This document shows, one piece after another, positions 24,074-42,767 of a stretch of DNA of 64,000 bases. Under the pieces are notes generated by a model that was not told where the DNA came from, did not search any database, and was given only the letters and a program-made list of their open reading frames with translations. Position 1 is the stretch's first letter; each line of letters begins with the position of its first letter. Source of the DNA: an uncultured Gemmatimonadales bacterium (GTDB lineage: Bacteria; Gemmatimonadota; Gemmatimonadetes; Longimicrobiales; RSA9); assembly GCA_963783305.1 (NCBI GenBank), contig CAWAMW010000007.1, positions 288,001-352,000 on the forward strand, read 5' to 3'. The position numbers and the translations under genes are program-made.

Positions 24074-25513
24074 TCAGGGCAGCAGCAGCACGCGCCCCAG
24101 CGGGGCCATGGCCCCTTCCGCGGCCAGCCCGGCCGCCAGGGTGGCCACCACGGTCGCCGCCAGCACCCACCCGGACCAGCGTCCCAGCACCGCCACGGGC
24201 GCCTCCGCCGCCGGTTGGAAGTAGGCGGGCCCCAGTACCCGGAGGTAGTAGAACAGCGAGGCCACGGTGTTGGCGACGGCGACGACGGCGAGCCAGCTGT
24301 AGCCGCCATCGATGGCGGCGCCGAAGATCATGAGCTTGCCGACGAACCCGCCGAGGGGCGGGATCCCGACCAGCGACAGGAAGGCGATGGCGAGGGCCGC
24401 GGCAACGGCGGGGCGGGCGCGGCCGAGTCCCCGGTAGTCGTCGAGGTCGGTCCGGCCCCGGAGATGGGTCACGACGGCGAACGCGCCGAAATTGGCGAGG
24501 CCGTAGGCCAGGAGGAAGAAGAGGAGGCCCGACAGGGCGAGGTCGCTCAGGCCGAGGACGGCCACGGCCACCAGCGCGTACCCGGACTGGGAGACGGACG
24601 ACCAGCCCAGCATTCGCCGGACGTCCGTCTGCCAGAGGGCGCCCAGGTTGCCGAGTGTCATGGTGACGACGGCCAGGGCGGCGATCAGCAGACGCCACGG
24701 GACGAGCCCATCGGGCAGGAGGGACACGACTCGGGCCAGCGCGACGAGCGCGCCGACCTTGGGCACCACCGTGAGGAATGCCGCAGAGGGCGCCGGCGAT
24801 CCCTCCGCCACGTCCGGGAGCCACGTGTGGGCCGGGAACGCCGCCAGCTTGTACGTCAGTCCCACCACCATGAAAGCGACGGCGACCAGCAGGCCCCAGC
24901 GCGCCCCGCCCGCTGCGCCCGCCGGGCTCGCCGCGCCGGCGGCCAGGCCCCGCCGGATTCCTTCGTACCCGGTGTCGCCGAGGAGGCCGAACAGGATCAC
25001 CACGCCGGCCACCAGCAGTGCGTTGGCCAGCGCGCCGACCAGGAAGTACTTCATCCCGGCCTCGACGGCCAGCGGCCAGTCCCGGTGGTAGGCGGCGAGG
25101 GTAAAGCCGGTGACGGACGACAGGAGCACGGCCACCACCAGCTGCATCGTGTCGGCGGCGCCAGCCATGAGCACCGCCCCCACCGTCGACAGGAGGAGAA
25201 CGGCGTAGAACTCGCCGTGGCGGCGGTCGCTGCGGAACCAGTCGGGGGCCAGGCCGAGGGCGAGACCGGCGAAGAGGAGGATCATGAGCCGCGCGGCGAT
25301 GGTGGCGCCGTCGAGGGCCCAGGTCCCGTGGAAGGTGAGCCGCGCGGGTCCCCCCACCTGGCGGACGCTGAGCCAGGCTGCGGCGGCGAGGCCGGCGAGT
25401 GCGAGGAGGGCGCAGAGGGTGTGTCGTCTGTGGGGGATGAACGCGGCCACCAGTAGCGTGACCACGGCGGCCACGACCAGCGCGATCTCCGGGAAGAGGT
25501 CGCCTACGGGCAT
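24074..25513 (-). CDS. nuoN: NuoN-like antiporter subunit
   Basis: EAGMKYFLVGA, YKLAAFPAHTWLPDVAEGSP, RRMLGWSSVSQSGY, SLVGIPPLGGFVGK. Confidence 0.85.
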   Translation of the reverse strand: MPVGDLFPEIALVVAAVVTLLVAAFIPHRRHTLCALLALAGLAAAAWLSVRQVGGPARLTFHGTWALDGATIAARLMILLFAGLALGLAPDWFRSDRRHGEFYAVLLLSTVGAVLMAGAADTMQLVVAVLLSSVTGFTLAAYHRDWPLAVEAGMKYFLVGALANALLVAGVVILFGLLGDTGYEGIRRGLAAGAASPAGAAGGARWGLLVAVAFMVVGLTYKLAAFPAHTWLPDVAEGSPAPSAAFLTVVPKVGALVALARVVSLLPDGLVPWRLLIAALAVVTMTLGNLGALWQTDVRRMLGWSSVSQSGYALVAVAVLGLSDLALSGLLFFLLAYGLANFGAFAVVTHLRGRTDLDDYRGLGRARPAVAAALAIAFLSLVGIPPLGGFVGKLMIFGAAIDGGYSWLAVVAVANTVASLFYYLRVLGPAYFQPAAEAPVAVLGRWSGWVLAATVVATLAAGLAAEGAMAPLGRVLLLP

Positions 25514-26997
25514 CAGCCCGCTCCCACCAGGACGACGGCGGCGCTCTCGACCAGCGTCAGTAGGAAGCGCGGGTAGACGCCGATGAGCACCACGAGGGCC
25601 AGGAGCACGCCGAGCACCAGCCGCTCCCGCAGCCCCAGGTCCGGGAAGTCCGTCCACCGCTCCGGGAGCGCGCCGAAGAAGAGGTCGCGGAGCATGAGGA
25701 GGAAGAGCGCGGCGGTCACCAGGACGCCGACCAGGGCGAGGCCGGCGAGCCAGGGGAAGACGCCGAAGGTGCCGATGAAGATCTGGATCTCGGCCACGAA
25801 CCCGGCCAGGCCCGGCAGCCCGAGGCTGGCGAAGGCGGCCAGCGTGGTGGCCGTGGTCAGGACGGGCGCGGGGCCGGCCAGGCCGCCGTAGGCGTCCAGG
25901 TCGTATTCCTCGGTCCGCTGCCAGAAGGAGCCGGCGATGAGGAAGAGCGCGCCGGTGATGAGCCCGTGGGCGATCATCTCCACCGTGGCCCCGGTGAGGG
26001 CCAGCCGGCGGGCGGCCTCCGCCCCCGGCACCATGGCCCCCGCGGCGGCGATCCCGAGCACCGTGTAGCCCATGTGATTCACCGACGTGTACGCGATTCG
26101 CCGCTTCAGGCTCGACTGCGCCAGCGCCACCAGCGCGCCGTAGACGATGGATACCACGCCGATCACGCCGATGACCAGCGCCCACCGGTGGAAGGTCTCC
26201 CGCATCATGGAGTACGGGATCCGGATCAGGCCGTAGGTCCCCATCTTCAGGAGCACGCCGGCAAGGACGGTGGACGCTGGGCCGGGGGCGTCGACGTGGG
26301 CGGGCGGGAGCCAGGTGTGGAAGGGGACCACGGGCGTCTTGATCCCGAGCCCGATCCCCAGCCCCAGGAGCGCGAGCCCCGCCATCCCGTGGCCGGCCAG
26401 CGGCTGCTGGGCGATGAGCGCCCGCATGTCGAAGGTGTGGGGATCGCTGGCCAGGTAGAGCGCCAGGATCGCCAGCAGCATGGTGAGGGAGCCGGCCAGC
26501 GTGTAGAGGAAGAACTTGAGCGCGCTGCGCCGGGCGTCGCCGTGTCCCCAGCGGCCGATGAGGAAGAACATCCCCACGAGGCTCAGGTCGAAGAAGACGT
26601 AGAAGAGGAGGAGGTCGAGGGCCAGGAACACGCCCAGGGAGACGCCCTCCAGGAAGAGCAGCCAGGCGTAGTACTGACGGGGCCGCCCCAGGGTGTCCAC
26701 CGGGTACGCCACTGCCCCCGTGAACAGGAGGGCGCTCATGGTGGCCACGGCCAGGGAAATCCCGTCCACGCCCAGACGGTAGCCCACGCCCAGCGACGGG
26801 ATCCACGGCACGTCCGTCACCAGCTGGAACTGGGGGCCGCCCATGTCGAACCCGAGCCAGGCCACGACCAGCAGCGCGAGCGGAACGGCCGCCGACGCGG
26901 TCGCGAAGAGGCGCGCGGCGCCCTCCGTCCAGCGATTCGACACGACCAGCGCCGTGGCGGCCGCGAGGGGCAGGACCAGCGAAGCCGTCAGCAGCAT
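25513..26997 (-). CDS. nuoM: NuoM-like antiporter subunit
   Basis: LGVDGIS, KFFLYTLAGS, IKTPVVPFHTWLPPAHVDAP, LLKMGTYG, LGLPGLAGFVAE. Confidence 0.88.
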   Translation of the reverse strand: MLLTASLVLPLAAATALVVSNRWTEGAARLFATASAAVPLALLVVAWLGFDMGGPQFQLVTDVPWIPSLGVGYRLGVDGISLAVATMSALLFTGAVAYPVDTLGRPRQYYAWLLFLEGVSLGVFLALDLLLFYVFFDLSLVGMFFLIGRWGHGDARRSALKFFLYTLAGSLTMLLAILALYLASDPHTFDMRALIAQQPLAGHGMAGLALLGLGIGLGIKTPVVPFHTWLPPAHVDAPGPASTVLAGVLLKMGTYGLIRIPYSMMRETFHRWALVIGVIGVVSIVYGALVALAQSSLKRRIAYTSVNHMGYTVLGIAAAGAMVPGAEAARRLALTGATVEMIAHGLITGALFLIAGSFWQRTEEYDLDAYGGLAGPAPVLTTATTLAAFASLGLPGLAGFVAEIQIFIGTFGVFPWLAGLALVGVLVTAALFLLMLRDLFFGALPERWTDFPDLGLRERLVLGVLLALVVLIGVYPRFLLTLVESAAVVLVGAG

Positions 26998-27000
26998 TCC

Positions 27001-28932
27001 TCAGCCTCCCAGGATGAGCAGGACCAGGACCGCGGCGAGCCCCGCCACGACCAGTCGGTAGTAGTGATGCGCGAGCCCGGTCTGGAGCCGCCGCGCCTGA
27101 GCGCCGCCCCATGCCACCAACCGCGACGCGCTCTCCGGCACCCCGTCGAACAGCGCCTCTCCCGGTCGCTGACCGAGCCACGCCAGCCCCCGTCCCACCG
27201 CCGCCGTCAGCCGCACACCGCCATCGACGATCCGGTCGTCGAAGAGAGCGACGGCCCCGGCCAGGGCGGCGACTCCGGTACGGACCCCACGGACCGCGCC
27301 ATCCACCGCCGCGTCATCCACACGAGCCAGCGCGTGAGCCAGGAGCCGGCCCGGTCGGACCACGCCCTGCCGGGCGAGGGCTGGCAGCCCGAGCCAGTCC
27401 GCCGGTCCCGCGGCCACGTCCCAGCCGAGCCCCGGCCGGCGGCGGGCCACCTCCCACCCCGTGAGCACGCCCAGGGCGACCAGCCCCAGCGACACCGCAA
27501 CCTCCCATGGCCTGAAGGGTGGGATCTCCCCGTCGAGCAGGTGGCCGGCGGCGCCATGGAGGGGGGGGAGCCAGAGGACGCCGAGCGCCACGGTCGCCGC
27601 GGCGAGCAGGTACAGGGGCCAGCGCTCGAGAGAGCGCGGGGACCGGCCGTCTCGGGCGGTGGAGCCGGTCCCGAAGGCCTGGAAGAAGAAGCGGGCCATG
27701 TAGGCGGCCGAGAGGGCGCCGGCCAGCGCCGCCGCCACGGCGACCCAGGGAGCCGCGTGGCCCGCCGTGGTCACCACCGCCTCCTTCGTCCAGGCGGCGC
27801 CGAGGGGCGGGAGCCCGGCGATGGCCCCGGCAACGACGAGCGTCGCCGTCGCGATCCCCGGCAGCACGCGGCGCAGCTCCATGCGCCAGAGCTCGTAGCT
27901 GCCCGCGCACTCGTGGGCGATCCCGGTGGCCAGGAACAGGGGCGCCTTGGCCAGGGCGTGGGCCACCAGGTGCAGCGCGGCCACCGCCGGATAGCCCGCT
28001 CCCACCGCCAGGAACATGAGCCCGTAGTGGGCGGAGGTGGAGCCGGCCAGCAGGCGCTTGGCGTGAGACTGGAGCAGGGCGACGACGCCGGCCATCAGCG
28101 CCGTCGTCAGCCCCACCGCCATGGTCGCCGCCCCGAACCAGGGCGCCGTGTCCAGCACCGTGTGGAGCCGGATCAGCAGGAAGGCGCCGGCCGCCACCAT
28201 GGTCGCCGCGTGCAGCAGCGACGAGACCGTCACCGGGCCCTTCATGGCCACGAACAGCCATGGCGCGAACGGGACCTGTGCCGATTTCGCCGCCGCGGCC
28301 ACCAGCACCCCCGCCACCACGAGATGGAGATGGAGCCCGTCGAGTCCGCCCAGCGCCCCGTACTCCAGGGAGCCGACCCCGGCGAACGCGGCTCCCAGGG
28401 CAAGGAACAGCCCCAGGTCGCCCGCCCGGGTCGTAACGAACACGATGGACCCCGCCCGCGGGTTCTCCCCGTCCCGCCAGTGGTGGGCGATGAGCACCGC
28501 CGAGCACGCGCCGATCAGCTCCCAGCCCAGCAGCAGCGTCAGCAGGTCCGCCGCCCCCGCCACCACCTCCATCGCCGCGACGAAGAAGGCCAGCACCGCC
28601 AGCAGACGCGTCAGCCCCCGGCCCTCCTCGTGGCCCGCGCCGTACGCCAGCACCGGCGCCGCCACTACCGGAACCAGCACCGCGAACAGCGCGGCCACCG
28701 GCGACGTGGCGGGGGCGTAGTCCAGGCTCAGCCCCAGGCTCTCGCTCCACGGCAGACGACCCGTCCACCCGGCCCACGCCGCGAAGGCCGCCACCCCCGC
28801 GGTGAGGGCCATGGCCGCTGCCGCCGTAACCGCCAGTCGTCCCCTCGGCGGCTCGCCGTCCATGCCGTCACGGCCGACGCCGGCCAGCAGGAGCGCCGCG
28901 AGGAGGGGAACGAGAGGGACGAGCCACGCCAT
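27001..28932 (-). CDS. nuoL: NuoL-like antiporter subunit
   Basis: LLGWELIG, AKSAQVPFAPWL..AMKGPVTVSSLLHAATMV, HLVAHALAKA, C-terminal VDG...RRLQTG. Confidence 0.88.
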   Translation of the reverse strand: MAWLVPLVPLLAALLLAGVGRDGMDGEPPRGRLAVTAAAAMALTAGVAAFAAWAGWTGRLPWSESLGLSLDYAPATSPVAALFAVLVPVVAAPVLAYGAGHEEGRGLTRLLAVLAFFVAAMEVVAGAADLLTLLLGWELIGACSAVLIAHHWRDGENPRAGSIVFVTTRAGDLGLFLALGAAFAGVGSLEYGALGGLDGLHLHLVVAGVLVAAAAKSAQVPFAPWLFVAMKGPVTVSSLLHAATMVAAGAFLLIRLHTVLDTAPWFGAATMAVGLTTALMAGVVALLQSHAKRLLAGSTSAHYGLMFLAVGAGYPAVAALHLVAHALAKAPLFLATGIAHECAGSYELWRMELRRVLPGIATATLVVAGAIAGLPPLGAAWTKEAVVTTAGHAAPWVAVAAALAGALSAAYMARFFFQAFGTGSTARDGRSPRSLERWPLYLLAAATVALGVLWLPPLHGAAGHLLDGEIPPFRPWEVAVSLGLVALGVLTGWEVARRRPGLGWDVAAGPADWLGLPALARQGVVRPGRLLAHALARVDDAAVDGAVRGVRTGVAALAGAVALFDDRIVDGGVRLTAAVGRGLAWLGQRPGEALFDGVPESASRLVAWGGAQARRLQTGLAHHYYRLVVAGLAAVLVLLILGG

Positions 28933-28934
28933 GG

Positions 28935-29240
28935 TCAGCCCTCCAGCGTGGTGAGGCCCTCGGTGGTGTCCACCTGCCGGTCCCGGTAGACCGCCACCAC
29001 CAGAGCGAACCCCATGGCCATCTCCAGCGCCATCACCGCCATGATCACGATCGCCAGCAGCTGCCCTTCAGGCGCGAAGCCCGCCGCCAGCGCCCAGAAC
29101 GCCCCCACCGCCAGGATCAGCCCGTTCAGGATCAGCTCGAGGCCCATCATCAGCATCACGAACGACTGCTGCGACAGCGCGCCGTAAACCCCGATTCCCA
29201 CCAGCACGGCCGCCACCAGGAGGAGCGCAGTCAGGGTCAT
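28935..29240 (-). CDS. nuoK: NuoK-like subunit
   Basis: 101 aa, 3 TM; MMGLELILNG and MALEMAMG (both conserved Glu). Confidence 0.88.
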   Translation of the reverse strand: MTLTALLLVAAVLVGIGVYGALSQQSFVMLMMGLELILNGLILAVGAFWALAAGFAPEGQLLAIVIMAVMALEMAMGFALVVAVYRDRQVDTTEGLTTLEG

Positions 29241-29839
29241 CCGTGCCGCCCGTGGTGGTGGCCGCCGCCCTCACTGGGACGCCGACCGGCGGGCTCGCCG
29301 CCCGGCTGGAGGCCCGGGGGCCGCGAGCCTTCATCGGCGCTGCCGTAGCGGCCCCGGCGGCTGGAGAGGATGACGGAGCCGATCATGCCGGCCAGGAGGG
29401 TGACGCCGGCGGACTCGAAGATGAGCATGGAGGCGCCGAGGAGCTCGTGGCCGAGGGTGGCGATGGGGTCGGCGGGGGCCGGTCCGCCCGCGGGGAACTC
29501 GACGAGCAGGGCCACGCTGGCCAGCAGGGCCGCTACGCCGACGCCGGCGGCCAGGGCGGTCCTCGGCTGGTGGACCATGTTCATGGGATTGAGCCCGGCG
29601 GGGTTCATCATGAACATGACCATGAAGAGGGCCATGACCATCATCTCGACGGCCATCATGAAGATCAGGGCGAAGCCCAGGTAGGGGGCGGCCAGGAGCA
29701 GGAGGATGGCCGCTACCGCGATGAAGGAGGTGAGGAGGAAGAAGGAGGCCCGGACCATGGAGTCGGTCCGGAAGACCCGCCAGCCGCTGACGATGGCCAG
29801 GGCGGCGAAGAGCCAGAAGAAGAGGTCGATGGCGCTCAC
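29237..29839 (-). CDS. nuoJ: NuoJ-like subunit, Met-rich, with His-rich tail
   Basis: GTG start; 5 TM; LFMVMFM, LGHELL..LIFESAGVTLLAGMIGSVIL; C-terminus GGGHHHGRHG. Confidence 0.8.
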   Translation of the reverse strand: MSAIDLFFWLFAALAIVSGWRVFRTDSMVRASFFLLTSFIAVAAILLLLAAPYLGFALIFMMAVEMMVMALFMVMFMMNPAGLNPMNMVHQPRTALAAGVGVAALLASVALLVEFPAGGPAPADPIATLGHELLGASMLIFESAGVTLLAGMIGSVILSSRRGRYGSADEGSRPPGLQPGGEPAGRRPSEGGGHHHGRHG

Positions 29840-30765
29840 AGCAGCACCGCCACCCCGGCGGCCGCCAGCGCCAGGAACGAGAGGGGGAGCAGGCCGACCC
29901 AGACCAGCGTCACCACGCGCTCGGTGGCGATCCGCGCCCCCAGGCGACCCAGGAGCGCCAGGAGCGCCAGCAGCGCCACCGTCTTCAGCGCCAGCCAGAT
30001 GGGCCCCGGCAGCCACGGCCCGAGCCAGCCGCCCAGGTAGACCGTCGCCGCCACGGCCGCAAAGGCCACCAGCATGGCTCGCCGAGCCAGCTCCCACACC
30101 AGTCGCGACGGGCCCGACACCTCGGCGGCGGTGCCTCCGGCCAGGTCCCGGGAGTCGGCGAAGTCCAGCGGCCCCCAGAAGGCCACGCCCAGCCCCACGA
30201 ACAGGAAGAGTGGGAGCCCCAGCGGCTGCCGGACCACGTTCCACAGCCCGCGCTGGGACTCCACGATGGCGGACAGCCGGAGCGACTCGGCCGGGAGGGC
30301 CGCGGCAATGAGGACGAACATGCTGACCAGCATGTAGGCCAGCCCGAGGGCCACGTAGCGGTAGCCCCCGATCAGGGGGAGCGGCGCGTTCGCCGACCAC
30401 CCATGGAGGAAGATCGCCACCACCGCCAGAGACTCCACCGCCCCCCATAGCACAATACCCGCGGCCACGTCTCCCGGCGCCGAGGCGGCCGACCACGGCA
30501 CGACTCCCAGCCCCACCGCCGCCAACCCCAGGTAGAGAGCCGGGGCCAGCACCCACGCCGGTCCGTCCGGCCGCTCCGTGTGGCTCCGCTGCTGAACCAG
30601 CGTCAGCGCCGCTCGCCGTGCCGGCCCCAGCGGATCCAGCCGCGGCCGCCGCCTCGCCACCACCGCACCCGCCACACCGTCCATCAGTGTGAACAGCCAC
30701 ACCCCCGCAAGCAGGGCGACGCCCACCACCGCCAGGGCCAGGAGCGGAGACACGGGCGCCGGCAT
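29836..30765 (-). CDS. nuoH: NuoH-like subunit (divergent)
   Basis: LAPAL, GWSAN..LIGGYR, LSAIVESQ..WNVVRQPLG, PLDF..LAGGTAAEVSG, VYLGGW, WLALKT. Confidence 0.8.
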   Translation of the reverse strand: MPAPVSPLLALAVVGVALLAGVWLFTLMDGVAGAVVARRRPRLDPLGPARRAALTLVQQRSHTERPDGPAWVLAPALYLGLAAVGLGVVPWSAASAPGDVAAGIVLWGAVESLAVVAIFLHGWSANAPLPLIGGYRYVALGLAYMLVSMFVLIAAALPAESLRLSAIVESQRGLWNVVRQPLGLPLFLFVGLGVAFWGPLDFADSRDLAGGTAAEVSGPSRLVWELARRAMLVAFAAVAATVYLGGWLGPWLPGPIWLALKTVALLALLALLGRLGARIATERVVTLVWVGLLPLSFLALAAAGVAVLL

Positions 30766-31898
30766 CAGGGGGTCTCCTCGAACCCGGCTGGGGCGCCACC
30801 GGCGGGGGCGTACGTCCGGGCGTTCAGCAGCAGAACCGCCTCTCCCCACTCCAGCCCCGGCAGCCGGTCGGCCAACGCAGCGGCGTCGCCCCGGGGCACA
30901 TCGAAGGCCGCCGCTTCCGACGTCCCGCCGCCGCCGCCCGCACCGCGCCTCGCGGTCACCACCCCCTCCCGAGCCGACGCCAGTCCCTCCCGCAGCAGCC
31001 CCCGCACGTCCTCCCCCGCCACCCGCGCCGGGAGCGCCGCCAGCGTCCCGCCCCGGCGCGTCCACCGTTCCAGCCGACGCACTTCGCCTGGCGCGACTCT
31101 TCGTGCGAGGGCGAGGGACAGGGCCCGGTCCCCCAGCGCCGTCGCCCCCGCGACCCGGAGAAGCCGCGCCGACCAGCGCAGGAGCCGACGCGCCCTCTCC
31201 ACGTCGCCGTCACGCGTTGCCCCGGGCCGGAAGGCGTCCTCGGGGAAGGGCGGCTCCAGCACCTCCGCCTCCTGGATGACGTCCCCCTGGAGCGCGAGGC
31301 GCAGCACCAGGCCTGGTGGGAAGGGCGGGAAGAACGGGCCGACGGTGAGCTCGAGGCGGTCGAGGGCGAGGCCGTCGCGGCCGTCGTCGTCGGTCATGGC
31401 CATGGGGCGGCCGTACGGCACGCCGCCCATCATCCCCTCCCCGCCCTGGCCGTGGTCGCCGCGTCCGCGCCACGGGTGGGGCGGACGATCCGGCCGGCGG
31501 TGCCCCTCCGATTCCCGCTCTCCGAGAACCAGCGACCGGTGCAGGGAGCGCAGCGCCGGGACGGGATCCGCCTCCGTCGGCACCCGGTCCGGCGCCGACC
31601 CCCCCTTCGGCGCTATCCCCCCCTGCAGCCCCGGAAGCGGCGCGTCCGCGCCCCAGCGGAGCGTCGTCCGGGGGTGGGGCACCTGGTCGTGGACGCGGTC
31701 CAGCGCTTCCTGGAACCGGAGCGGAATGGCGCCGGCGACCAGCAGCACCGTGGCGTGGCGGGGCGAGTCCACCAGCCGGATCCCCGGGCGGAGCCGGAGC
31801 GCCTCGACCCGCTCCCGGGCGCCCGCGCCCACGGCCGCGAAGACGGGAGCGGGCGCAGATGCGGCCAGCCGACCGGCCACCCGCCGGAGCCCCGTCAC
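30765..31898 (-). CDS. Degenerate NuoB-like/NuoD-like fusion without cysteines
   Basis: SPRHATVLLVAG..RVHDQVPHPR resembles NuoB SPRQADVMIVAG..RVYDQMPEPK; LTVGPFFPPFPPGLVLRLALQGDVI resembles NuoD LNxGPxHP..HGVLRLxLxLDGE; zero Cys; start (GTG) uncertain. Confidence 0.65.
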   Translation of the reverse strand: MTGLRRVAGRLAASAPAPVFAAVGAGARERVEALRLRPGIRLVDSPRHATVLLVAGAIPLRFQEALDRVHDQVPHPRTTLRWGADAPLPGLQGGIAPKGGSAPDRVPTEADPVPALRSLHRSLVLGERESEGHRRPDRPPHPWRGRGDHGQGGEGMMGGVPYGRPMAMTDDDGRDGLALDRLELTVGPFFPPFPPGLVLRLALQGDVIQEAEVLEPPFPEDAFRPGATRDGDVERARRLLRWSARLLRVAGATALGDRALSLALARRVAPGEVRRLERWTRRGGTLAALPARVAGEDVRGLLREGLASAREGVVTARRGAGGGGGTSEAAAFDVPRGDAAALADRLPGLEWGEAVLLLNARTYAPAGGAPAGFEETP

Positions 31899-32248
31899 TG
31901 CCACCGGAAAATCCCCTCGCGCCACCCGTAGACGATTCCCACCGACAGGATGGCCAGGAACATCCCCATCTCCATCAGCGCCTTCATCCCCTCCTGGACG
32001 TACACTACCGCCCAGGGGTACATGAACATCATCTCCATCTCGAAAGCGATGAAGAGGAGGGTCATGGAGTAGTAGCGGACGTGGTAGCGGCTCCAGGCGT
32101 GGGTCGCCGGCTCGCCACCACCGAGGAAAGGCGCGGCCTGCGGGTCGGTCCGCGGTCGGCGGTCGAGCCGGTCGAGCACCACCTGCACGGCCACGGCGAG
32201 AGCCATGGGCGTCACGAAAAGCACGAGCAGTGCGGCCAGGGTAGTCAT
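31895..32248 (-). CDS. nuoA: NuoA-like subunit
   Basis: 3 TM; YHVRYYSMTLLFIAFEMEMMFMYPWAV, YGWREGIFRW. Confidence 0.88.
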   Translation of the reverse strand: MTTLAALLVLFVTPMALAVAVQVVLDRLDRRPRTDPQAAPFLGGGEPATHAWSRYHVRYYSMTLLFIAFEMEMMFMYPWAVVYVQEGMKALMEMGMFLAILSVGIVYGWREGIFRWQ

Positions 32249-32545: not shown

Positions 32546-32590
32546 GCCGCTTCGGTCCCGCTGGACGTGCGGTGGGACGTGCGCCCTCTA

Positions 32591-32638
32591 TTGACCAATT
32601 GGAAAGTAAGTACTATGTTGAACTTTCCGAGTGGTCAA
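32591..32638. promoter_or_regulatory. Second copy of TetR-type operator with sigma70 promoter facing cheBR
   Basis: TTGACCAATTGGAAAGT-N14-ACTTTCCGAGTGGTCAA; plus strand TTGACC-N17-TATGTT. Confidence 0.75.
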
Positions 32639-32712
32639 TAGGCCAGCACCGACCGCTCATCACCACTGGCGATCCGCGCCGGTCGGCTCCTCCCTCTCTG
32701 AAGGGATCGCAC

Positions 32713-40992: not shown

Positions 40993-41589
40993 ATGACAGG
41001 AGAGGATTTCATGACGTCGGGAACAGTGGTCGGAGCCGTGGCGGTGGCGATGATCCTCGGTGCGTGCGATGGACGGGGCGACGTGCCGACGCCGAAGGAC
41101 GATGTGCCCGTGCCCACGGAGGAAACGGCGCGTGGAGAAGGGGTGGCGCCGCCGTCCGGGAATCGGCCCGACGCGGGGTCGGGTCGGGGCATGCCCATGA
41201 GTGGCGGCATGGGGGAGATGCAGGGGCGGATGATGGGCGGCGGATCGCCGGAAGACGCGCCGGAGGCAAATGCCGCGGAGGCCAGCACCGCCGGCTGTCC
41301 GGACGTGACCCAGGAGCTCGCCGATCGCGGGCGGGAGGTCTACGCCGGGGCCGGCAACTGCTTCACGTGTCACGGCGGGGACGCCGCAGGCTCACCGCTG
41401 GCGCCGGACCTGACGGACGGGGAATGGCTCAACGTGGACGGGACCTACGGATCCATTCTCGCGGTGGTCCGGGAGGGAGTGGCCCAGCCGCAGCAGTTCC
41501 CCGCGCCCATGCCGGCGATGGGAGGCGCGAACCTGTCCGAGAATCAGCTCTGTGCCGTGGCAGCCTACGTCTATTCTCTGAGCCACTGA
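40993..41589 (+). CDS. Monoheme c-type cytochrome lipoprotein with Met-rich linker
   Basis: Lipobox LGAC; CFTCH; APDLTDGEW; PMPAMGG axial Met; start may be 41011. Confidence 0.88.
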   Translation: MTGEDFMTSGTVVGAVAVAMILGACDGRGDVPTPKDDVPVPTEETARGEGVAPPSGNRPDAGSGRGMPMSGGMGEMQGRMMGGGSPEDAPEANAAEASTAGCPDVTQELADRGREVYAGAGNCFTCHGGDAAGSPLAPDLTDGEWLNVDGTYGSILAVVREGVAQPQQFPAPMPAMGGANLSENQLCAVAAYVYSLSH

Positions 41590-41792: not shown

Positions 41793-42767
41793 ATGATGAC
41801 AGGACGAACGGGGAGGATGCTCACGCTGATGGGCGCCGTGGCGGTGGGTATGGGGGCCTGCGACGACACGACAACGATCGAGCCGGAGACCACGCTGCTG
41901 AGCGTGGCGCCCGCTGCGGGGGCCGTGGACGTGGCGACCGACGCACCGATCGAGGTGACGTTCGACCGGCCGATGGGCGATCACGCGACCGACTACGCGG
42001 ACCTTCACCGCGGGGACGTGAACGGCCCCATGGTGGGAGGCGAGTGGAGCATGCAGTCGGGTGGAATGACTCTGCACTTCACGCCCCACGAGCCGCTGGA
42101 GCCGGGCACCGAATACACGCTGCACCTGGGCGGCGGGATGATGGATGCCGACGGGCATCCCGCGGATATGGAGAGCCACGGCACGTCCATGGGCGGCATG
42201 TGGGCCGATGGTGGGATGATGTCCGGCGGCATGGGCTCGCACATGGGCAATGGCTGGCAGGACAAGAACGGCAGCTATGGAATGGTCTTCAGCTTCACGA
42301 CGGCCGGGACGGCAGCGACCGCGCTGGTGGCGGTGGCGCCGCAGGGCGGGGATACCGGGGTGGACCCGACGGCACCGGTCGTCGTGACGTTCAACCACGC
42401 CATCGATCCGGCCATGGCCGAGTACGCGGCGCTGCATGAGGGCGATGTGACGGGTCCGGAAGTGCCCGGGACATGGACGCTCTCCGAGGACTCGACGCAG
42501 CTCATCTTCACGCAGGATGAGCCGCTCAAGGCGGGGACCCGGTACACCATCCACCTGGGCGGAGGGATGATGGACGCCGAGGGGCACCACGTGGACATGG
42601 ATGAAAACGGCACCCACATGGGCGGCGAGTGGGCCACCGGCTCCATGATGGGCGGGGGCATGAGCGGCGGCATGAGCGGCGGCGAGCACAACCACATGGG
42701 GCAGGGGTGGGAGCATCCTGACAATGGCAGCTACGGGATGATCTTCACCTTCACGACTGCGGCATAG
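41793..42767 (+). CDS. Lipoprotein with two tandem Ig-like (Big_5-type) domains carrying Met/His-rich inserts
   Basis: MGAC lipobox; repeated VTF[DN]xx[MI], FT..EPL..GT.YT.HLGGGMMDA.GH...HMG.GW...NGSYGM.F.FTTA. Confidence 0.8.
   Translation: MMTGRTGRMLTLMGAVAVGMGACDDTTTIEPETTLLSVAPAAGAVDVATDAPIEVTFDRPMGDHATDYADLHRGDVNGPMVGGEWSMQSGGMTLHFTPHEPLEPGTEYTLHLGGGMMDADGHPADMESHGTSMGGMWADGGMMSGGMGSHMGNGWQDKNGSYGMVFSFTTAGTAATALVAVAPQGGDTGVDPTAPVVVTFNHAIDPAMAEYAALHEGDVTGPEVPGTWTLSEDSTQLIFTQDEPLKAGTRYTIHLGGGMMDAEGHHVDMDENGTHMGGEWATGSMMGGGMSGGMSGGEHNHMGQGWEHPDNGSYGMIFTFTTAA

What the first reader, a model, noticed from the sequence alone, without database searches (positions are those of the whole stretch)
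28935..32248. Methionine-packed NuoA/J/K helices and His/Met tails: possible Cu(I)/Ag(I) pathway
Seen: NuoJ FMMAVEMMVMALFMVMFMMNPAGLNPMNMVH (11 Met in 31 aa) and tail HHHGRHG; NuoA FEMEMMFMYPW...GMKALMEMGMF; NuoK VMLMMGLE and IMAVMALEMAMG; subunit X GDHGQGGEGMMGG..PMAM. Met-richness is unexpected in a high-GC genome. Known: these helices form the E-channel region of complex I, and Met relays conduct Cu(I)/Ag(I) in CusA and Ctr1. Inference: the E-channel is repurposed for soft-metal transport or sensing, driven by proton flux through L/M/N.
Basis: partly seen in the sequence, partly recalled or inferred. Interest (0 to 1): 0.88.

Follow-up and report, generated by a model that had tools for sequence, protein, structure and literature searches.

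The report
Methionine-lined complex I, likely copper pump
This is an intact eight-gene offshoot of respiratory complex I that has lost its electron-carrying parts and gained conserved methionines in its core, and because its relatives often sit among copper-resistance genes it likely uses the proton gradient to expel copper rather than to respire.

Summary
The methionine clusters are real and conserved. They mark an eight-gene operon (nuoA, a NuoB-NuoD remnant without Fe-S cysteines, nuoH, J, K, L, M, N) in a genome that also has a full complex I. Eleven NuoJ Met and a new Glu65 were unchanged in 240 of 240 homologues. Several replace residues that line the E. coli E-channel core, so they likely face inward, not lipid. 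NuoL and NuoM keep their proton axis; quinone-site residues, NuoH E157 and NuoN E133 are lost. A multicopper oxidase lay in the flanks in 15 of 50 genomes (0.6 expected). In one actinobacterial clade csoR, mostly with copA and copZ, lies just upstream, and subunit X often carries a fused heavy-metal-binding domain. Against: this copy has no cop/cus neighbour, the His tail is dispensable, silver is untested, and nothing was assayed. Best reading (0.6): a proton-driven Cu(I) exporter. Operons of this gene order are in print as a 'partial nuo operon' read as salt adaptation, and once as co-expressed with cop genes; I found no paper on the Met core. This scan reached the same reading three times before on other DNA.

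The parts
31895..32248 (-). nuoA-like, 117 aa. Keeps acids E70/E72 (canonical FDxE) and E93. H50, H56, M62, M71, M73, M74, M76, M94, M96 are at least 95% conserved in 75 homologues
30765..31898 (-). Subunit X, 377 aa: NuoB-like domain (about 1-130) fused to a shrunken NuoD-like domain (about 172-367), no Cys; predicted cytoplasmic cap on NuoH/NuoA
31395..31466 (-). Gly/Met linker motif of X (residues 145-168); the GMMGGxPYGRxMxM pattern is in 69 of 77 homologues. A heavy-metal-binding domain is inserted in this linker in 9 of 20 actinobacterial copies
29836..30765 (-). nuoH-like, 309 aa. The E157 position is Met/Ile/Leu (Glu in 4 of 81); TM1 ERK motif and part of the TM5-6 acidic loop are lost; M149 and M231 are conserved in the main group only
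29237..29839 (-). nuoJ-like, 200 aa, with Met-packed TM3 and a new invariant Glu65
29570..29662 (-). NuoJ TM3 and following loop (residues 60-90): M61, M62, E65, M66, M69, M73, M77, M78, M86, M88, H90
29240..29260 (-). His-rich C-terminal tail of NuoJ; variable across the family and not needed for membership
28935..29240 (-). nuoK-like, 101 aa. Keeps E35/E73 (E. coli E36/E72); new M29, M31, M70, M74
27001..28932 (-). nuoL-like antiporter subunit, 643 aa; E138, R169, D172, K216, H241, H325, K329, K383 unchanged in 75 of 75
25513..26997 (-). nuoM, 494 aa (TIGR01972 466 bits, cut-off 263.8); D137 (for E144), K220, H234, K251, H308, H344, E403 unchanged in 72 of 72
24074..25516 (-). nuoN-like, about 480 aa; K222 (71 of 72), K252 and K393 (72 of 72) kept; TM5 Glu replaced by Leu in 72 of 72; H305 position is Ser/Ala/Thr

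Best explanation
The operon encodes a complex I-derived set of membrane subunits without Fe-S cysteines, which likely works as a proton-driven Cu(I) exporter: protons entering through NuoL/M(/N) would drive copper outward through a methionine-lined path predicted at the NuoA/J/K core. Shown: gene content, loss of Fe-S ligands, retention of the L/M charged axis, invariant Met plus a new Glu in A/J/K, and family-level linkage to copper genes. Predicted: X folds as NuoB plus a NuoD remnant and docks on NuoH/NuoA. Inferred: X, with its Met/His linker or fused metal-binding domain, takes Cu(I) from the cytoplasm or from CopZ. The ion would then pass along Met/Glu sites from the cytoplasmic ends of J TM3, K TM2 and A TM2 to the outer Met of A TM2/TM3, J TM3 and K TM3 (helix directions recalled from complex I). 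The charge wave of the antiporter subunits, run backwards, would supply the energy, as in the Mrp Na+/H+ antiporter whose cation site lies in the homologous subunits. Export rather than import is inferred from placement behind csoR and efflux-type copA.
For: Conservation: 11 NuoJ Met (M61, M62, M66, M69, M73, M77, M78, M86, M88, M138, M152), E65 and H90 were unchanged in 120 of 120 and 120 of 120 homologues of two searches. Ten of these Met (all but M152, 18 of 20), E65 and H90 were also kept in 20 of 20 actinobacterial copies. In 30 canonical NuoJ/K controls these columns are V, Y, A, I, L. Position: E. coli V58J, Y59J, A62J and A73K, listed in the E-channel QM region, and the gate I63J (bioRxiv 10.64898/2026.01.27.702182, passages) align to M61, M62, E65, K-M74 and M66 (with the E. 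coli chain; for K, cyanobacterial and Thermus alignments). No redox module: no nuoE/F/G/I; X has no Cys here and no CxxC in 77 of 77 homologues; a full canonical nuo operon exists elsewhere in the genome. Docking: X on H/A/J scored 0.80, best control 0.49 (116 of 157 solved and 2 of 215 mismatched pairs reach the mark; runs agree in at least 94% of contacts; partner pLDDT at least 73), with X 161-169 and A 41-58 in the interface; likeness to solved NuoB/D-NuoH may explain the pass. Copper linkage: multicopper oxidase in flanks in 15 of 50 genomes against 0.6 expected from each genome's own PF07732 count; a copper marker in 40 of 80 genome loci and 20 of 80 metagenome loci against 66 of 5000 random windows of this genome, with mer genes in 2 of 80 and CDF in 5 of 80; 3 of 3 plasmid loci read lie in cop islands. 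In 20 actinobacterial loci: CsoR-family gene upstream in 12, CopZ-type HMA in 9, Cu-type P1B ATPase in 9, HMBD fused into X in 9. A Pseudomonadota-rich atlas cluster also pairs HMBD with the 49-kDa domain (score 0.77, a lead only). A nuoADHJKL cassette in Marinobacter atlanticus lies inside and is co-expressed with cop genes (PMC8233155, passages). Mrp precedent: its cation site includes the residue that complex I has as Y59 (PMC7419157, passages).
Against: No transport, binding or phenotype data exist for any member. This copy has no copper marker in its flanks, nor has the same-family relative G051 by my reading of its ORFs. No CsoR- or CueR-like box was found upstream. Half of the genome loci (40 of 80) and three quarters of the metagenome loci (60 of 80; 18 of 29 with long flanks) show no marker. 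Markers were drawn from the genome loci themselves and genomes are related, so counts overstate; 13 of the 14 copper-linked actinobacterial loci are one clade, and only 1 of the other 6 is linked. Mobile cargo clusters for reasons other than function. NuoN E133, whose Mrp counterpart is the coupling residue, is Leu in 72 of 72, so Mrp-like coupling cannot be copied exactly. The H-subunit Met are not kept in the actinobacterial clade, and some distant Met-rich NuoJ lack Glu65. Met positions were placed by alignment only.
Confidence: 0.6

Rival explanations
1. Copper binds the Met core as a switch and is not transported. The complex is a Cu-gated proton or cation conductor, or a sensor, that adjusts pH or membrane potential under copper stress.
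For: Explains the Met core and cop linkage equally. Loss of NuoN E133 and NuoH E157 could mean the A/J/K region is cut off from the pumps.
Against: Conserved Met run the whole length of J TM3 and on both halves of A and K helices, more than one site needs. A fused HMBD and adjacent copZ suit delivery of a substrate.
Confidence: 0.13
2. A Na+ (or K+)/H+ antiporter for salt or pH adaptation, as proposed for the 'partial nuo operon' of marine actinomycetes.
For: Proposed in PMC3314556, PMC6002675 and PMC6676996 from distribution in marine strains (passages). Many named carriers are halophilic or marine. A new membrane Glu65 lies one turn from the position of Mrp E706. An Na+/H+ exchanger gene is nearby in a few loci.
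Against: The position matching Mrp E706 is Met and the one matching E137d is Leu. Thioethers are poor ligands for alkali ions (established chemistry, recalled). There are no MrpE/F/G genes in the operon. The papers cited offer no assay in the passages read, and salt adaptation does not predict csoR/copZ/HMBD linkage.
Confidence: 0.1
3. The same Met path runs inward or supplies copper for cuproenzyme assembly or storage.
For: A copper storage protein (DUF326) gene lies directly upstream of nuoA in 7 of 80 loci. SCO and cytochrome c genes occur in some flanks.
Against: Cu(I) uptake runs down the membrane potential and needs no three-subunit proton motor (inference). Placement behind csoR and efflux-type copA implies induction by copper excess.
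Confidence: 0.08
4. A redox-driven ion pump with an unknown electron donor, or one using copper redox chemistry, as suggested for the M. atlanticus cassette.
For: X keeps NuoB and NuoD folds (Z 11.0, rmsd 3.0, 122 aligned; Z 12.0, rmsd 3.9, 193 aligned) and is predicted to dock where the Q module docks. Suggested in PMC8233155.
Against: No Fe-S ligands, no nuoI, and no partner oxidoreductase gene common to the loci. The two His of the NuoD beta1-beta2 loop appear replaced by Phe/Leu and Pro (weak local alignment, E 0.12). About half of NuoD is missing, and quinone-cavity acids of NuoH are lost.
Confidence: 0.06

Closest known systems
Respiratory complex I (NuoA-N), membrane arm and E-channel
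   Same: Order and homology of A, H, J, K, L, M, N; A D79/E81, K E36/E72 and the L/M Lys-His-Glu axis kept
   Different: No NuoE/F/G/I and no recognised NuoC; B and D fused, shrunken and Cys-free; J Y59 to Met, A62 to Glu, I63 to Met; H E157 and N E133 lost
'Partial nuo / partial NDH-1 operon' (nuoA-hypothetical-nuoHJKLMN) of Salinispora, Kocuria flava S43 and marine Streptomyces
   Same: Identical gene order (PMC6676996); patchy, horizontally acquired distribution (PMC3314556)
   Different: Read there as proton/Na+ pumping for osmoadaptation; the passages read mention no Met core and draw no link between the operon and copper. I could not fetch those named sequences, so identity with this family rests on gene order
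nuoADHJKL cassette in the cop cluster of Marinobacter atlanticus CP1 (PMC8233155)
   Same: Complex I-like genes without N module, inside copper-resistance genes and co-expressed with them
   Different: Reported without nuoM/N and with short nuoL; authors suggest copper redox as energy source; sequence not compared here and supplements were not readable
Mrp Na+(K+)/H+ antiporter
   Same: Redox-free member of the same superfamily; cation site in the NuoJ/NuoK homologues coupled to antiporter-like subunits (PMC7419157)
   Different: Keeps NuoH and a B/D remnant, has three antiporter-like subunits, lacks MrpE/F/G, and has Met and Leu at the E706a and E137d positions
Met-relay Cu(I)/Ag(I) transporters CusA (RND) and Ctr1
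   Same: Conserved membrane Met with acidic residues; CusA is proton-driven (recalled, no call)
   Different: Unrelated folds; resemblance is chemical only

Membership tests
Respiratory complex I (14- or 11-subunit) | Membrane subunits A, H, J, K, L, M, N | tested here: met
   NCBIfam matches for all seven; only NuoM (TIGR01972) and NuoK (NF004320) pass a curated cut-off
Respiratory complex I (14- or 11-subunit) | NuoB with the cysteines of cluster N2 | tested here: not met
   X has no Cys; no CxxC in 77 of 77 and CC in 2 of 77 homologues; canonical NuoB shows its CC motif
Respiratory complex I (14- or 11-subunit) | NuoI ferredoxin subunit and an electron-input module in the operon | tested here: not met
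   Eight-gene order A-X-H-J-K-L-M-N with no such gene in the window or the loci; all eight genes found in 48 of 48 and 20 of 20 full-length loci
Respiratory complex I (14- or 11-subunit) | Quinone-binding His of the NuoD beta1-beta2 loop | tested here: inconclusive
   Structural match covers this region and the local alignment shows no His, but it is weak (E 0.12)
Respiratory complex I (14- or 11-subunit) | E-channel acids H E157, A D79, K E36/E72, N E133 | tested here: not met
   A and K acids kept; H E157 is Glu in 4 of 81 and N E133 in 0 of 72
Mrp antiporter | MrpA-G gene set including MrpE, F, G | tested here: not met
   No such genes in the operon; L, M, N score best to Nuo models, and NuoH is present
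Mrp antiporter | Cation site E706a, H37c, H40c, E137d | tested here: not met
   Via the paper's stated homologies the E706a position is M62 and the E137d position is L130
Membrane-bound [NiFe] hydrogenase | CxxC Ni ligands in the large subunit | tested here: not met
   No CxxC in 77 of 77 X proteins despite fold likeness to HycE (Z 12.3, rmsd 3.3, 185 aligned)
Partial nuo operon (nuoA-hyp-HJKLMN) | Gene order nuoA, hypothetical, H, J, K, L, M, N | tested here: met
Partial nuo operon (nuoA-hyp-HJKLMN) | Sequence grouping with the named Salinispora/Kocuria/Streptomyces copies | not testable with these tools
Cu(I) exporter (function) | Cu(I) binding, transport and resistance phenotype | not testable with these tools
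   Needs experiments

The most novel reading that the evidence does not exclude
Complex I has been rebuilt into a new class of metal pump: a redox-free, proton-driven Cu(I) exporter in which the E-channel became a methionine relay and the quinone module became a copper-loading cap fed by CopZ or a fused metal-binding domain. It spread horizontally across several bacterial phyla.
Probability: 0.55. Interest if true: 0.9.

Novelty: new variant of a known kind. Interest (0 to 1): 0.74.

Why it matters
Known bacterial copper exporters are P1B ATPases, RND pumps and a few secondary carriers (recalled). A complex I-derived exporter would add a new class and reannotate a widespread operon now labelled 'NADH-quinone oxidoreductase' or read as salt adaptation. 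It would also be a natural experiment on an open question in bioenergetics: how the antiporter-like subunits couple to the E-channel. Here quinone chemistry appears absent, while the TM3 gate of NuoJ is rewritten and held invariant.

Tried and rejected
Chance or composition as cause of the Met run: rejected. Degenerate pseudo-operon: rejected, all eight frames are open and overlap or abut. His tail as an essential part: rejected; at least 3 His in the last 30 residues in 109 of 120 and 64 of 120 homologues, and no His tail in most actinobacterial copies. A shared copper-regulator box upstream of nuoA: short recalled CueR, CsoR and CopR patterns hit at most 5 loci per pattern of those scanned and none in this window; one locus with a divergent csoR has a CsoR-like palindrome (L046). 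Pfam found no family in X at E 1e-6. Met side chains could not be mapped in 3D because models return no coordinates. The NuoM tree (FastTree, 94 rows, one outgroup, no support values read or clade test) was used only to see that copper-linked loci are scattered. Flanking singleton genes of the 80 genome loci (398 clusters) were not Pfam-scanned, so copper genes of other families may be missed. Literature searches for a Met-lined or copper-transporting complex I homologue found only PMC8233155; subscription papers are not covered and its supplements were unreadable.
Full report
Observation. The finding is the front half of an eight-gene operon on the minus strand, 32248 to 24074: nuoA, X, nuoH, J, K, L, M, N, with overlapping or closely spaced stops and starts. 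Met is 7.5-9.4% of A, J and K but 1.3-2.8% of the other five. Only three of 22,699 six-frame segments of the genome reach 11 Met in 31 residues, and the other two are polar repeats. The genome has a separate complete nuo operon with Cys-bearing B, G and I subunits, so this one is not needed as the respiratory enzyme.

Family. NuoJ has 1,561 homologues at E 0.001 or better among 8,000 candidates, a count that includes canonical NuoJ; the best 120 are 66-84% identical and come from Halomonadaceae, Marinobacter, Alphaproteobacteria and others. Distribution is patchy: 3 of 301 genomes of this order and 28 of 401 genomes of the phylum of an actinobacterial carrier. All eight genes were found in 48 of 48 full-length genome loci and 20 of 20 full-length metagenome loci. 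Four plasmid records carry it.

The methionines. In NuoJ, 11 Met, E65 and H90 are unchanged in 240 of 240 homologues from two searches; ten of those Met, E65 and H90 are also kept in 20 of 20 more distant actinobacterial copies. In NuoK M29, M31, M32, M70 and E35 are unchanged in 79 of 79 and 19 of 19; in NuoA M71, E72, M73, M76, M94 and H56 in 75 of 75 and 20 of 20. Thirty canonical NuoJ/K sequences from this phylum have V, Y, A, I or L at most of these columns; only J M67/M75 and K M32/M67 are shared. Met columns are conserved more often than other hydrophobic columns: 13 of 16 against 27 of 89 in J. A recent E. coli study (bioRxiv 10.64898/2026.01.27.702182, passages) lists twelve residues around the E-channel wire and names I63J as the gate. 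By alignment V58J, Y59J and I63J are Met here, A62J is Glu, A73K is Met (via cyanobacterial and Thermus NuoK) and E157H is Met in this copy. A D79 and K E36/E72 stay acidic. So several of the new Met sit at positions that are buried core in complex I. That they form one continuous path is inferred from helix directions that I recall; no coordinates were available.

Subunit X. Its profile matches NuoB/PSST and NuoD/49-kDa chains and the genome's own NuoB and NuoD. The AlphaFold model (pLDDT 85, pTM 0.85) matches NuoB over about 1-130 (Z 11.0, rmsd 3.0, 122 aligned) and NuoD over 172-367 (Z 12.0, rmsd 3.9, 193 aligned of 410). It has no Cys, and no homologue has CxxC (0 of 77). A complex prediction of X with H, A and J scored 0.80 against a best control of 0.49; 116 of 157 solved and 2 of 215 mismatched pairs reach the mark, runs agreed in at least 94% of contacts, and partner pLDDT was at least 73. 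The pass may come from likeness to solved complex I. The interface includes X 161-169, which holds two conserved Met, and A 41-58 with H50 and H56.

The motor. NuoL keeps E138, R169, D172, K216, H241, H325, K329, K383 in 75 of 75; NuoM keeps D137, K220, H234, K251, H308, H344, E403 in 72 of 72; NuoN keeps its three Lys (71-72 of 72) but has Leu at the TM5 Glu in 72 of 72 (equivalences from alignment to the canonical copy). NuoH has lost E157 in 77 of 81 and part of its acidic loop. The proton-conducting half is under selection while the quinone half is not.

Neighbours. I called genes in 80 genome loci, clustered them and ran Pfam on one representative for 90 of the 94 multi-locus flank clusters; 398 single-locus clusters were not scanned. 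The commonest flank families were EgtB, CopB, multicopper oxidases, a two-component pair, P1B ATPases and cupredoxins. For an unbiased test I took the first 50 long loci from different genomes: 15 have a multicopper oxidase in about 12 kb of flank, against 0.6 expected from each genome's own PF07732 matches. A copper marker was in 40 of 80 genome loci, 20 of 80 held-out metagenome loci (11 of 29 with at least 8 kb flank) and 66 of 5000 random windows of this genome; mer genes were in 2 of 80 and CDF in 5 of 80. Three of four plasmid hits were read and all three lie in cop islands. Of 29 actinobacterial matches I fetched 20 on long contigs and scanned 84 nearest genes: a CsoR-family gene is upstream on the same strand in 12, a CopZ-type HMA gene in 9 (adjacent to nuoA in 6), a Cu-type ATPase in 9, and a multicopper oxidase near 3. 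In 9 of 20, X carries a heavy-metal-binding domain in its B-D linker (pattern count; Pfam PF19335 confirmed in 2 of 2 tested). Different lineages pair the operon with different copper systems. Limits: 13 of the 14 linked actinobacterial loci are one clade; genomes are related; the marker set came from the genome loci; and this window has no marker, its genome's csoR and P1B ATPase lying on another contig. A same-genus copy has a YHS gene directly upstream.

Mechanism. The simplest account is an Mrp-like logic re-evolved from complex I. In Mrp, protons entering through antiporter-like subunits drive a cation out through a site formed by the NuoJ and NuoK homologues, which includes the residue that complex I has as Y59 (PMC7419157, passages). 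Here that region is lined with thioethers and a few carboxylates, the ligand set of Cu(I)/Ag(I) paths (recalled), and the cap has Met/His linkers or a metal-binding domain. I put proton-driven Cu(I) export at 0.6, a Cu-gated conductor or sensor at 0.13, Na+/H+ antiport at 0.10, copper import at 0.08 and a redox pump at 0.06. The loss of NuoN E133, whose Mrp counterpart is the coupling residue, is the main unexplained feature.

What is known. The gene order is in print as a 'partial NDH-1/nuo operon' of Salinispora, Kocuria and marine Streptomyces, read as osmoadaptation (PMC3314556, PMC6002675, PMC6676996; passages). A nuoADHJKL cassette inside and co-expressed with cop genes was reported in Marinobacter atlanticus (PMC8233155; passages; supplements unreadable). 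I could not compare those named sequences. Searches found no paper on the Met core or on copper transport by such a complex. Three earlier notes of this scan on other genomes reached the same reading; I had written my reading before seeing them, and one led me to the actinomycete papers.

Verdict. A real, conserved feature; not a member of respiratory complex I, Mrp or the hydrogenases by their defining features; a new variant of the complex I superfamily with a likely but untested copper-export function. Interest 0.74.

Noticed in passing
window 41793-42767 (+) and 40993-41589 (+): A protein with two Big_5 Ig-like domains carrying Met/His/Gly-rich inserts (9% Met), preceded by a cytochrome c with a Met-rich linker, about 9 kb upstream of nuoA; possible periplasmic metal-binding pair.
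   Followed up: no
window 32588-32641: AT-rich imperfect palindrome with 10-base outer arms (CTATTGACCA / TGGTCAATAG) in the gap between nuoA and the divergent gene at about 32.7 kb; possible regulator site or paired promoters.
   Followed up: no
L005-L009, L012-L014, L020-L022, L055, L041: egtB (often with egtD), ergothioneine synthesis, lies directly after nuoN in 12 loci and before nuoA in one, 13 of 80 in all; also on plasmid L089.
   Followed up: partly
L002, L009, L010, L021, L030, L055, L058, just upstream of nuoA: A DUF326 copper-storage-type gene within about 250 bases of the called nuoA start, same strand.
   Followed up: partly
L088:4250-4411, L249:13572-13709; similar ends in L078-L080: A small YHS-domain gene directly upstream of nuoA in a same-genus genome and in Actinomycetota.
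   Followed up: partly
L231:4956-6574: One actinobacterial copy follows arsenic-type genes (LMWPc, ArsR, aquaporin family) instead of copper genes.
   Followed up: no
proteins P0336, P0341, P0350, P0351, P0353, P0356, P0358, P0364: Longer (240-445 aa) Met-rich NuoJ-like proteins without the TM3 Glu, some keeping Tyr; possibly an intermediate or second subfamily.
   Followed up: no
window about 27100-27400 (nuoL C-terminal third): The horizontal-helix region is about 50 residues longer than in the canonical NuoL and looks internally repeated.
   Followed up: no
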